This document shows positions 61,943 through 64,000 of a stretch of DNA of 64,000 nt, piece after piece. Both the position numbers and the translations under genes were made by a program. Where the stretch lies: sequence record OM386662.1, one strand, 5' to 3'. Numbering within the stretch: the first letter of the stretch is position 1; every line of letters starts with the position of its first letter. Source of the stretch: Escherichia phage vB_EcoM_ESCO47. Under the pieces are notes generated by a model that saw only the letters and a program-made list of their open reading frames with translations, did no database searches and was not told where the DNA came from.

Positions 61943-62314
61943 ATGAACACTATCAATTTAAATGCTACAATTAAATGCCGTGACCATGATGGATATAAAT
62001 CTCAAGTTGTTAACGAGTTACAGTGGATGGTTCGTTCAGTTCAAGGTGATGTGGTTTATTGTACAACTCCTGATGGCCCTTCAGACGATTTTTGTTATCA
62101 TATCGAAATCGAAAACTTTTTCACTGGTGAAATTTACCGTCTGAATTCTACAGTTTATGGCTGTATTCGTTCTAAAACTTACGAAGATGAAGAAACTGGT
62201 TACTCTGAAGATGTTGTATGGTACGAAAACGCCAGAAATCGCGCAGAGACATTAATCGAGAAGATTAAAGCAAAAGGTGTTATTGATTCAGCTAAGTGGA
62301 CAAAAATCAAATAA
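61943..62314 (+). CDS. hypothetical protein (123 aa)
   Basis: Promoter element and GGAG RBS upstream. Confidence 0.5.
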   Translation: MNTINLNATIKCRDHDGYKSQVVNELQWMVRSVQGDVVYCTTPDGPSDDFCYHIEIENFFTGEIYRLNSTVYGCIRSKTYEDEETGYSEDVVWYENARNRAETLIEKIKAKGVIDSAKWTKIK

Positions 62315-62318
62315 AAAT

Positions 62319-62358
62319 GTTTACTTTGGTACAGGATATGTTATTATATACCTGTACC
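62319..62358 (+). promoter_or_regulatory. early promoter-like element with inverted repeat
   Basis: -35 GTTTAC 62319-62324, -10 TATTAT 62342-62347; arms GGTACAGG 62328-62335 and CCTGTACC 62351-62358; ATG at 62389. Confidence 0.5.
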
Positions 62359-62388
62359 AACAAACAACTTAAACATCTGGAGAATAAA

Positions 62389-62754
62389 ATGAACTACACC
62401 AACTTCGAACGCAAATATGTTTCTAACGGTATCGCTGGTTCTATTGATACGATTTGCTTATGGAAACATAACAATGGTTCAGTATGTGAAATTGAGCAGT
62501 ATATGACACCTAATTATGTTTATATGCGATTTGAAAATGGTATCACCCTTTCAATTACAATGGAAGGTTCCAACTTCAAAATCGCTCTGGATGATGACTT
62601 CCGTCAACGTGATTTAGGTACTCATCCTTGTTGGAATGGTGATAATCGTAAGCTTCTGGTTAAAACTTGGATTCGCCATATTCTGAGTAATAGAGCTAAA
62701 CCTGAACATCTTGAAGCAATCTTTGATGTAGTTCTTAACGAATTCGATATTTGA
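62389..62754 (+). CDS. hypothetical protein (121 aa)
   Basis: ATG 62389 with GGAG RBS and promoter element upstream; listed ORF start 62296 lies inside that promoter element. Confidence 0.5.
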   Translation: MNYTNFERKYVSNGIAGSIDTICLWKHNNGSVCEIEQYMTPNYVYMRFENGITLSITMEGSNFKIALDDDFRQRDLGTHPCWNGDNRKLLVKTWIRHILSNRAKPEHLEAIFDVVLNEFDI

Positions 62755-62795: not shown

Positions 62796-62990
62796 ATGAA
62801 TTTATTTGTATCGCAAACTGTCCGGTTAAAAGGCGATGGAATTCCCGGAATGATTTCTAAAGTGTTACCTGCATTTAAATTGGGAGATATTCAGATCAAA
62901 GAAACCTATGTGGTCTTATGGGTAGACGGTACTGAAGATGTTCGTATGGGTTCTGAATTAGCAGTAATCAAATGTTTAAAGCGAGGATAA
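62796..62990 (+). CDS. hypothetical protein (64 aa)
   Basis: GAGGAA RBS upstream. Confidence 0.45.
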   Translation: MNLFVSQTVRLKGDGIPGMISKVLPAFKLGDIQIKETYVVLWVDGTEDVRMGSELAVIKCLKRG

Positions 62991-63115
62991 TATGATTAAG
63001 AAGCTAATCCAAAAATTGCTTGGCACTGAAATAGTTGAAGTTACTTATCGTGTGACTGACGTAAGCCCACGGACCCGAAATATTGGACCGTACTAAAACA
63101 ATTGAGAGATTCATT

Positions 63116-63952
63116 ATGAAACCCGTGATTTTAACCGATATTGATGGAGTATGTTTGAGCTGGCAGTCAGGTCTTCCATATTTTGCACAAAAATATAATC
63201 TGCCTTTAGAACATATCCTTAAAATGATTCAAGACGAAAAGTTTATTGCTCCTGGTAAACTTTTCAATACTGACGATAATCTTGGTAAACAATTAATCGA
63301 AAAATATAATTGTTCTGATTTTATTCGTTATTTAGCTCCATATACTGACGCTTTGCGTGTAATCAATAAGCTCAAATCCGACTACAATTTTGTAGCTGTA
63401 ACGGCTCTAGGTGATTCAATTGATGCCCGTTTGAATAGACAATTTAATCTAAACGCATTGTTCCCTGGCGCTTTCTCAGAAGTTATGATGTGCGGTCATG
63501 ATTCTTCAAAGGAACAATTGTTTAAAAAGGCTAAAGAGAAATATAATATTGTATGTTATGTCGATGATTTGGCTCACCACTGTGACCATGCATCAGAAAT
63601 TCTTAATGTGCCGGTATACTGGTTAGCTCGTGGTGAACGTGATGCAATTCCACGTACTGCACAACGTGTTTATACGTGGGACGATATTGAGCATCGTTTG
63701 GTTCCACCCGAGCATAATTCAGATTCAGATCGTGAAGACCTTTTAAAACGATTGGCGGATTTGCTTAAAGAATCCGGTGCAACAAGTCCAGGTGCGTGGC
63801 CTAATCAAATTGGCGCTCCGTCGAATCCGTATACCTGGCGAACCCCAGGACCAACCGATATGCAGCCTCATTGGCGATACACTAATGTAGGCGAACATCC
63901 TGTTCCTCCGTATTGGGCAGTTCCACAAGGTTACGGCACAACTAAGGGTTAA
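63116..63952 (+). CDS. HAD-family 5'(3')-deoxyribonucleotidase-like protein with Pro/Trp-rich C-terminal extension
   Basis: ATG 63116; VILTDIDGV nucleophile motif; C-terminal 80 aa Pro-rich (PGPTDMQPHWRY...PPYWAVPQGYG). Confidence 0.55.
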   Translation: MKPVILTDIDGVCLSWQSGLPYFAQKYNLPLEHILKMIQDEKFIAPGKLFNTDDNLGKQLIEKYNCSDFIRYLAPYTDALRVINKLKSDYNFVAVTALGDSIDARLNRQFNLNALFPGAFSEVMMCGHDSSKEQLFKKAKEKYNIVCYVDDLAHHCDHASEILNVPVYWLARGERDAIPRTAQRVYTWDDIEHRLVPPEHNSDSDREDLLKRLADLLKESGATSPGAWPNQIGAPSNPYTWRTPGPTDMQPHWRYTNVGEHPVPPYWAVPQGYGTTKG

Positions 63953-64000
63953 TTATGTTTGTAGTTCATGATATTACAGACGGCAAAAACACAACGCGTG

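What the first reader, a model, noticed from the sequence alone, without database searches (positions are those of the whole stretch)
63116..63952. HAD nucleotidase-like protein with an 80-residue Pro/Trp/Tyr-rich C-terminal extension
The N-terminal 200 aa look like a 5'(3')-deoxyribonucleotidase-type HAD domain. The C-terminus (ending ...PGPTDMQPHWRYTNVGEHPVPPYWAVPQGYGTTKG) is low-complexity and Pro-rich, unusual for this family and suggestive of a protein-interaction or localisation tail.
Basis: inference. Interest (0 to 1): 0.35.

Follow-up and report, generated by a model that had tools for sequence, protein, structure and literature searches.

The report
T4 gp30.2 phosphatase with floppy tail
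This is an intact copy of the long-catalogued but uncharacterised phage T4 gene 30.2, a phosphatase-type (HAD) enzyme whose proline- and tryptophan-rich tail is a real, fast-evolving and probably disordered family trait; the gene is ordinary, and only the tail's role is open.

Summary
The ORF is real: 63116-63952 (+), 278 aa, ATG start. The window is a T4-like (Mosigvirus/RB69-like) phage, and the ORF is the orthologue of T4/RB69 gene 30.2 (PHROG 420, E 1e-76), lying just upstream of gene 30.1, which in relatives precedes the DNA ligase gene.

The 83-aa extension is not a frameshift artefact. It has a linker, an amphipathic helix (203-219) and a 56-aa stretch with 20% Pro, 7% Trp, 7% Tyr and 12.5% Gly, which AlphaFold2 predicts as disordered. 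T4, RB69 and many Klebsiella, Enterobacter and Erwinia T4-like phages carry comparable tails. These tails vary greatly but share short motifs such as W-[RKV]-x-P. Dhakavirus, Acinetobacter, Aeromonas and Vibrio orthologues lack the tail.

The tail is under weaker purifying selection than the core (pN/pS 0.18-0.37 against 0.09). I read it as a dispensable linear-motif tether or regulatory tail on a small-molecule phosphatase, but no partner is known. It is a new member of a known kind, of low to moderate interest.

The parts
63104..63108 (+). Shine-Dalgarno-like GAGAG, 7 nt upstream of the ATG
   Evidence: Read directly from the sequence. The 22 nt upstream of the ATG align with RB69 and AV114.
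63116..63952 (+). CDS, orthologue of T4/RB69 gene 30.2 (278 aa plus stop)
   Evidence: ORF list and sequence. PHROG 420, E 9.6e-77. tblastn finds it in 1438 phage records. RB69 gene 30.2, T4 (72% identity over aa 1-255) and AV114 (93.9% over 278 aa) carry it just upstream of 30.1 and the ligase gene.
63116..63700 (+). HAD-superfamily catalytic core with C1 cap (aa 1-195)
63137..63151 (+). HAD motif I, D8-I-D10-G-V12 (nucleophile Asp and Asp+2 acid/base)
   Evidence: D8 and D10 are invariant and G11 nearly invariant in 61 family members.
63155..63331 (+). Helical C1 cap insert (about aa 14-72), including the highly conserved W16-Q-S-G-L-P-Y-F segment
   Evidence: AF2 helices at 16-26, 32-40, 46-49, 54-65 and 68-72 lie between motif I and the core helix before strand 91-96. 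W16, S18 and L20 are invariant.
63401..63403 (+). HAD motif II, T96
   Evidence: Nearly invariant (at least 90%) and at the end of strand 91-96.
63509..63511 (+). HAD motif III, K132
   Evidence: Invariant.
63563..63568 (+). HAD motif IV, D150-D151
   Evidence: Invariant and at the end of strand 145-150.
63701..63781 (+). Acidic linker plus amphipathic helix (aa 196-222; helix 203-219, REDLLKRLADLLKE)
   Evidence: AF2 predicts helix 203-219 with block pLDDT 75-91. The T4-like model has an equivalent helix at 202-220. A helix-like segment is present in most long-tailed homologues.
63782..63949 (+). Pro/Trp/Tyr/Gly-rich region, predicted disordered (aa 223-278)
   Evidence: Composition statistics. 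AF2 pLDDT 45-60. The T4-like tail scores 34-47.
63836..63850 (+). W241-R-T-P-G245, the most widely conserved short motif of the tail (W-[RKV]-x-P)
   Evidence: The Pro of this motif is at least 90% conserved in 37 tail-bearing homologues whose cores are about 45-73% identical. A W[RKVTW]x[PT] pattern occurs in 32 of 57 long tails.
63887..63949 (+). Terminal 21 aa (258-278), a minority allele of the Mosigvirus tail
   Evidence: Only 6 of 149 phage records with this tail type cover at least 80% of the query, so carry this end (AV109 and HX01; AV114). The rest carry the RB69-type end WWTIQNFPLDSSKWTWSINC.

Best explanation
The ORF is the orthologue of phage T4 gene 30.2. It most likely encodes a cytoplasmic, Mg2+-dependent phosphomonoesterase of the HAD superfamily (subfamily I, helical C1 cap). 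A cap of this type implies a small phosphorylated substrate; a (deoxy)nucleoside monophosphate is one candidate among several.

Fused to the enzyme is a lineage-specific C-terminal module: an amphipathic helix followed by a disordered region of about 56 aa rich in Pro, Trp, Tyr and Gly. This region carries short conserved motifs (W-[RKV]-x-P-G, then x-x-P-[WYH]-[WY]). The module is not needed for catalysis, because close orthologues lack it. Its most likely role is as a linear-motif tether or regulatory arm that brings the phosphatase to a phage or host partner, and it evolves fast.

Shown here: gene identity, HAD motifs, predicted fold, tail composition, predicted disorder, tail distribution across the family, and selective constraint. 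Inferred: phosphatase activity, substrate class and partner binding.
For: Identity:
- PHROG 420 matches at E 9.6e-77.
- Gene order matches RB69, T4, AV114 and JS10 gene 30.2.

Enzyme:
- D8, D10, K132, D150 and D151 are invariant and T96 nearly invariant in 61 homologues.
- The AF2 core has pLDDT above 90.
- The DxD signature with Asp+2 is typical of HAD phosphotransferases (established knowledge of the superfamily).

The tail is real and translated:
- The same 278-aa ORF occurs in AV114, and T4 has an 83-aa tail of the same kind.
- Tail pN/pS is 0.18-0.37, below 1.
- 57 of 106 sequences (the window protein plus 105 cluster representatives) have tails of at least 50 aa, and 45 of those are at least 10% Pro and at least 10% aromatic after the helix.
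- The W-x-x-P motif is conserved across cores only about 45-50% identical.

Disorder: pLDDT is 45-60 here and 34-47 in the T4-like protein.

Dispensable: Dhakavirus JS10 gp30.2 is 212 aa, with 30.1 starting 2 nt after its stop codon. Acinetobacter, Aeromonas, Vibrio and Serratia-phage proteins are 196-228 aa.
Against: - No enzymatic or interaction data exist. I found no paper on gp30.2 in the searchable library.
- Motif conservation in a Pro-rich, low-complexity alignment can be inflated by the aligner.
- The tail is lost in several lineages, and its last 21 aa are swapped between alleles. Weak or no function would explain that equally well.
- The synonymous and nonsynonymous counts in the tail are small (5-11 synonymous differences per comparison).
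Confidence: 0.55

Rival explanations
1. The tail is a functionless, weakly constrained extension. The end of the reading frame drifts, producing disordered sequence that is tolerated but does nothing specific.
For: - Tail length ranges from 0 to 148 aa, and tail sequences are hypervariable.
- The tail is cleanly absent in Dhakavirus, whose core is 75-78% identical.
- The terminal 21 aa are replaced between Mosigvirus alleles.
- Constraint is weaker than on the core (pN/pS 0.18-0.37 against 0.09).
- AF2 predicts disorder in two variants.
Against: - pN/pS remains well below 1.
- A length of about 75-100 aa, the helix, and the Pro/aromatic composition recur in 45 of 57 long tails from several genera.
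- W-[RKV]-x-P is conserved across deep divergence, as is GTGIEYLxxQPT in T4 and Klebsiella-phage types.
- An AT-rich phage (about 35% GC) maintains 51-52% GC coding sequence here.
Confidence: 0.2
2. The tail acts on its own enzyme. It folds back on the HAD core, or on a second subunit, as an extra lid, an autoinhibitory element or an oligomerisation arm.
For: - Helix 203-219 is predicted with fair confidence next to the core (pLDDT 75-91).
- HAD enzymes often use added elements or oligomer contacts to complete the active site (general knowledge of the superfamily).
Against: - Residues 223-278 are not docked with confidence in the window protein (pLDDT 45-60).
- The T4-like protein, modelled with a tail-bearing alignment, is also undocked (pLDDT 34-47).
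- Tailless orthologues keep every catalytic residue.
- Only monomers could be modelled, so an inter-subunit arm is not excluded.
Confidence: 0.15
3. The core is a polynucleotide 3'-phosphatase acting in end-healing, like the phosphatase domain of T4 polynucleotide kinase, and works with the neighbouring DNA ligase rather than on free nucleotides.
For: - Weak PHROG 415 (polynucleotide kinase) hit, E 0.0014, over aa 74-161.
- Phage kinase-phosphatases appear among the BFVD neighbours.
- In relatives the gene lies two genes upstream of the DNA ligase gene.
Against: - A roughly 60-aa helical C1 cap covers the active site in the model. Capped HADs usually take small substrates, while the aligned T4 Pnkp phosphatase chain is only 141 residues and aligns over 125, so the cap has no counterpart there.
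- No kinase or nucleic-acid-binding domain is present.
Confidence: 0.08
4. The extension is a sequencing or frameshift artefact.
For: None found. The only hint is that the RB69-type and window-type ends diverge just after a 1-nt indel in the DNA alignment.
Against: - The same 278-aa ORF occurs in AV114, and the same tail end occurs in AV109 and HX01 at 98-100% identity over the last 52 aa.
- Translating the other frames of either allele does not recover the other allele's peptide.
- T4 itself has a 278-aa protein with a comparable tail.
Confidence: 0.01

Closest known systems
Phage T4 gp30.2 (hypothetical protein, 278 aa; PHROG 420, ACLAME 784) and RB69 gp30.2
   Same: - Orthologue: 72% identity to T4 over aa 1-255 and about 92% to RB69-type proteins (AV112) over aa 1-257.
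- Same position upstream of 30.1 and the DNA ligase gene.
- Same architecture: HAD core, helix, then Pro/aromatic tail.
   Different: - The last 21 aa are a minority allele (6 of 149 records) unlike RB69's end.
- It lacks the GGIEYLYNRPT motif of the T4 tail.
- The usual upstream neighbour 30.3 is deleted in this window.
5'(3')-deoxyribonucleotidases cdN/mdN and bacterial NT5C-like proteins (Pfam PF06941; PDB 2jao, 2i7d, 1q92, 3bwv)
   Same: - HAD subfamily I fold with a small helical C1 cap and similar size (about 195 aa).
- DxD, T, K and DD motifs present.
   Different: - 14-18% identity.
- No Pfam NT5C hit for this protein, and weak hits in only 10 of 61 relatives.
- In the searches made here no similar tail turned up outside the gp30.2 family.
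Generic HAD subfamily IA phosphatases and dehalogenases (e.g. phosphoglycolate phosphatase 2yy6/2hsz, YfnB 3i76, L-2-haloacid dehalogenase 2w11)
   Different: - Identity is 12-18%.
- This protein keeps the Asp+2 residue (D10), which haloacid dehalogenases typically lack (superfamily knowledge, not checked here), so a phosphoryl-transfer reaction is expected.
- A PDB sequence-profile search finds no HAD at E<=1.
Phosphatase domain of T4 polynucleotide kinase (PDB 5uj0)
   Different: - The aligned Pnkp phosphatase chain is 141 residues and aligns over only 125, so gp30.2's roughly 60-aa cap has no counterpart there.
- gp30.2 has no kinase domain.

Membership tests
HAD superfamily | Motif I DxDx(T/V), with nucleophile Asp at the end of strand 1 | tested here: met
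   D8-I-D10-G-V12 follows strand 4-7. D8 and D10 are invariant in 61 homologues.
HAD superfamily | Motif II (Ser/Thr at the end of strand 2), motif III (Lys) and motif IV (DD or DxxxD) | tested here: met
   T96 is nearly invariant; K132, D150 and D151 are invariant. T96 and D150-D151 lie at the ends of predicted strands 91-96 and 145-150.
HAD superfamily | Rossmannoid alpha/beta core fold | tested here: met
HAD subfamily I (C1 cap) | Helical cap inserted between motif I and motif II | tested here: met
   Five predicted helices lie within aa 16-72. The top structural neighbours are all C1-capped enzymes.
NT5C 5'(3')-deoxyribonucleotidase family (PF06941) | Match to the family HMM above the curated threshold | tested here: not met
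   No NT5C hit for the window protein at E<=1. Only 10 of 61 family members give weak hits, best E 0.002. NCBIfam gives no hit.
NT5C 5'(3')-deoxyribonucleotidase family (PF06941) | Structure closer to cdN/mdN than to other HAD families | tested here: inconclusive
NT5C 5'(3')-deoxyribonucleotidase family (PF06941) | dNMP phosphatase activity | not testable with these tools
   Requires an enzyme assay.
T4 gp30.2 family (PHROG 420) | Match to the family profile and conserved position next to genes 30.1 and 30 | tested here: met
   PHROG 420, E 9.6e-77, over aa 1-253. Gene order matches RB69, T4, AV114 and JS10. Gene 30.1 begins at 63955, but the window ends before the ligase gene.
Polynucleotide kinase-phosphatase (PHROG 415 / T4 Pnkp phosphatase domain) | Significant profile match and a short, largely uncapped phosphatase domain | tested here: not met
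Known anti-phage defence or counter-defence families (PADLOC-DB) | Profile match | tested here: not met
   No family at E<=0.1.

The most novel reading that the evidence does not exclude
The tail could be a rapidly diversifying linear-motif tether. It would dock the phosphatase onto a specific host or phage protein, for example a nucleotide-metabolism or replication complex, or the neighbouring gp30.1, to which a tailless core is naturally fused in one metagenomic variant. Its allele swaps and lineage-specific losses would then reflect adaptation to different partners or hosts. That would make gp30.2 an example of a phage metabolic enzyme localised by a disordered Pro/Trp-rich tail.
Probability: 0.3. 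Interest if true: 0.45.

Novelty: new member of a known kind. Interest (0 to 1): 0.22.

Why it matters
gp30.2 occurs in more than 1400 sequenced T4-like phage records, including the model phages T4 and RB69, yet has no assigned function. Three results are useful for annotation:
- it is a catalytically intact HAD phosphatase with a C1 cap;
- it is not demonstrably an NT5C nucleotidase;
- its tail is a real but dispensable disordered module with a few conserved motifs.

These results also define a simple experiment: compare enzyme with and without the tail, and use the tail for pull-downs. For this window there is nothing exceptional. The gene is a normal orthologue that carries a rarer tail allele.

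Tried and rejected
- **Frameshift origin of the tail or of its variant end.** I translated all frames of the window, RB69, AV112, AV114 and T4 alleles. No frame of one allele reproduces the other's peptide. Rejected.
- **Tail as a mobile module found on other proteins.** phmmer with aa 196-278 against 1.84 billion representatives found only a gp30.2 fragment and two HYR-type repeat proteins. The repeat-protein scores come from 6-13 repeated weak matches. Rejected as spurious.
- **Evenly spaced aromatic 'sticker-spacer' pattern, as in condensate-forming regions.** Spacing is no more regular than in shuffled tails (fraction of shuffles at or below the observed value 0.06-0.66). No support.
- **Tail docking on the core.** Two AF2 runs, one on the window protein and one on the T4-like protein with a tail-bearing alignment, both gave low pLDDT for the tail.
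- **Sequence link to solved structures.** A profile search of PDB sequences returned only a chance amidase hit.
- **NCBIfam and PADLOC.** No hits.
- **Literature.** Four searches for gp30.2, gene 30.2 or its accessions found nothing relevant, and the 2010 T4-related genomes review (found) does not mention the gene. One search was a badly posed search and was wasted.
- **AFDB50 fold search.** The library was not available.
- **Promoter or terminator inside the tail-coding DNA.** The sigma-70 and terminator scan found nothing there.

Full report
**1. Observation**

The window carries an intact ORF on the + strand from ATG 63116 to the stop at 63950-63952, giving 278 aa. The mechanical ORF list extends it to a TTG at 63083. 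All orthologues begin MKP(T/V)IL, however, and a GAGAG site lies 7 nt upstream of the ATG, so 63116 is the start.

The compositional oddity is real but narrower than stated. The last 56 residues (223-278) are 19.6% Pro, 7.1% Trp, 7.1% Tyr and 12.5% Gly. The window's ORFs of at least 100 aa average 3.7, 1.4, 4.3 and 6.3%. The binomial P for P+W+Y is 4e-7, and this is the richest such stretch among those ORFs. Residues 196-222 are instead an acidic linker and an amphipathic helix. The tail-coding DNA reaches 51-52% GC in a roughly 35% GC neighbourhood.

**2. What the gene is**

The window is a T4-like phage close to RB69 and other Mosigvirus genomes (83-90% nucleotide identity in the listed records). 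The ORF is the orthologue of T4/RB69 gene 30.2:
- PHROG 420 ('unknown function') matches at E 9.6e-77 over aa 1-253.
- tblastn finds it in 1438 phage records.
- In RB69, T4, AV114, AV112 and JS10 the gene sits between 30.3 and 30.1, followed by the DNA ligase gene 30.

In the window, gene 30.1 starts at 63955, just before the window ends. I found no paper on gp30.2 in the searchable library. The 2010 review of T4-related genomes (found) does not mention it.

**3. The core**

In an alignment of 61 homologues, D8, D10, K132, D150 and D151 are invariant and T96 is nearly invariant. These are HAD motifs I-IV. The segment W16-Q-S-G-L-P-Y-F just after motif I is also very strongly conserved.

AlphaFold2 gives pLDDT 92-98 for aa 1-195. 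The model has a Rossmann-like strand order and five helices between motif I and motif II, which is a C1 cap.

- Foldseek against the PDB returns 119 hits at E<=0.001. The listed ones are all HAD subfamily I: cis-epoxysuccinate hydrolase, cdN and mdN deoxyribonucleotidases, the 3bwv 'deoxyribonucleotidase-like' protein, YfnB and haloacid dehalogenases.
- Pfam gives only HAD_2 at E 0.25 for this protein. Across the 61 family members, 13 weakly hit Hydrolase, 10 NT5C (best E 0.002) and 9 HAD_2.
- NCBIfam, PADLOC and a PDB sequence-profile search give nothing.
- Among viral models, the nearest outside the family are uncharacterised HADs of about 195-206 aa. Phage proteins annotated '5' nucleotidase' score lower.

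HAD-superfamily membership is therefore met on every feature I could test. The Asp+2 residue (D10) points to phosphoryl transfer rather than dehalogenation, by general knowledge of the superfamily. The C1 cap points to a small substrate. NT5C membership is not met by profile and is inconclusive by structure, so 'nucleotidase' remains one candidate among several.

**4. The tail is not an artefact**

AV114 encodes the same 278-aa protein at 93.9% identity. AV109 and HX01 share the last 52 aa at 98-100%. T4 has a 278-aa protein with an 83-aa tail of the same kind: FPWNTTWRTPGFNPYNPYHPYQTHPFQTWNYIKPGGIEYLYNRPT....

Among 106 sequences (the window protein plus 105 cluster representatives):
- 57 have at least 50 aa after the core, and 45 of these are at least 10% Pro and at least 10% aromatic beyond the helix.
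- 40 have at most 20 aa after the core.

Tail-bearing proteins come from T4-, RB69-, Klebsiella-, Enterobacter-, Erwinia- and Citrobacter-phage types. Tailless ones come from Acinetobacter, Aeromonas, Vibrio, Shewanella, Pseudomonas, Serratia and Pantoea phages, and also from Dhakavirus, whose core is 75-78% identical to this one. In JS10 the 212-aa gene is followed 2 nt later by 30.1, so the tail there is truly missing and not split off as a separate ORF.

**5. Anatomy and constraint of the tail**

Aligned tails share four elements:
- a short amphipathic helix;
- a [FW]P...W-[RKV]-x-P motif, here W241-R-T-P-G245, whose Pro is at least 90% conserved in 37 tail-bearing sequences;
- a following x-x-P-[WYH]-[WY];
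- in T4 and the Klebsiella-phage types, a terminal GTG(I/L)EYLxxQPT...GK motif that the window protein lacks.

A caveat applies: aligners can line up prolines in Pro-rich sequence, so this conservation may be overstated.

Nei-Gojobori-type counts give pN/pS of 0.18-0.37 for codons 196-255, against 0.08-0.09 for the core. That is purifying selection, but weaker, and it rests on few substitutions.

AF2 places residues 223-278 at pLDDT 45-60. A second run on the T4-like protein, using an alignment of tail-bearing homologues only, gives 34-47. This is consistent with intrinsic disorder and gives no support for docking onto the core, at least in a monomer.

A tail-only phmmer search of 1.84 billion representatives finds only the tail's own family, plus two repeat proteins whose scores are repeat-inflated. 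The tail is therefore not a shared module. Aromatic spacing is no more regular than chance.

**6. Allelic variation**

Within Mosigvirus the tail is shared up to about aa 257 and then splits into two unrelated ends. Most records have the RB69-type WWTIQNFPLDSSKWTWSINC. Only 6 of 149 have the window-type RYTNVGEHPVPPYWAVPQGYGTTKG. Neither end is a frame-shifted reading of the other.

The core of the window gene is far from RB69 and AV114 at synonymous sites (pS about 0.57), while the tail is close (pS 0.12-0.25). A recombination junction therefore lies inside the gene.

**7. Interpretation**

The best-supported reading is a small-molecule HAD phosphatase carrying a dispensable, fast-evolving, disordered C-terminal module with a few conserved linear motifs. 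Such modules usually mediate binding to a partner, so I rank tethering or regulation first (about 0.55 for the whole statement; HAD identity itself is near certain). The rivals are:
- a neutral extension (0.2);
- an intramolecular or inter-subunit lid or arm (0.15);
- a Pnkp-like end-healing phosphatase working with the ligase (0.08);
- an artefact (0.01).

One lead for a partner is a metagenomic variant (P0020) that fuses a tailless core in frame to gp30.1 (DUF3045). It rests on three member sequences and a 1.4-kb contig, so it is only a lead.

**8. Verdict**

This is an ordinary orthologue of a catalogued but uncharacterised T4 gene, so it is a new member of a known kind. The tail is a family trait and not a peculiarity of this genome. 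Its role is an open question of modest size.

Noticed in passing
window 62992-63096 and 63063-63093: Gene 30.3 (Pfam Phage_30_3) is missing, and gene 30.4 is cut to a 34-aa ORF that matches only the first 28 positions of PHROG 2042. About 571 bp of RB69 (L001 4160-4730) are replaced by about 31 bp. In T4, AV114 and JS10 the 30.2 start overlaps the 30.3 stop (coordinates). Here 30.2 starts 20 nt after the stop of the truncated 30.4 ORF.
   Followed up: partly
window 63887-63949: The last 21 aa of gp30.2 are a minority allele. Only 6 of 149 phage records with this tail type carry it (AV109, AV114 and HX01 among them); the rest have the unrelated RB69-type end. The two ends are not frame-shifted versions of each other.
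   Followed up: yes
window 63116-63952: There is a mosaic junction inside the gene. Synonymous divergence from RB69 and AV114 is about 0.57 in codons 1-195 but 0.12-0.25 in codons 196-255, so the two halves have different recent histories.
   Followed up: partly
P0020 (metagenomic homologue, 302 aa): This is a natural in-frame fusion of a tailless gp30.2 core with gp30.1 (DUF3045/PF11243, E 8e-15). It may hint that the two neighbouring gene products work together, or it may be a lost stop codon in a short contig.
   Followed up: partly
P0065, P0067 (Yersinia phage phiR1-RT type), P0090: The same HAD core carries quite different C-terminal additions in other lineages: a non-Pro-rich segment of 111-127 aa, and a Cys-rich segment of 148 aa. 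Neither has a Pfam match. The C-terminus of gp30.2 seems to be a hot spot for module exchange.
   Followed up: no
window 62296-62754: The 152-aa GTG ORF in the mechanical list over-extends gene 30.7. PHROG 1582 (121 positions) matches only the last 121 residues, and RB69 gp30.7 is 121 aa, so the real start is probably the internal ATG near 62389.
   Followed up: no
window 62796-62990: In place of RB69's gene 30.6, the window has a 64-aa ORF (PHROG 1690). It aligns with the 195-nt ORFs found in AV114, and with those annotated gp30.5 in T4 and JS10. The small-gene cluster between 30.7 and 30.2 is therefore mosaic between relatives.
   Followed up: no
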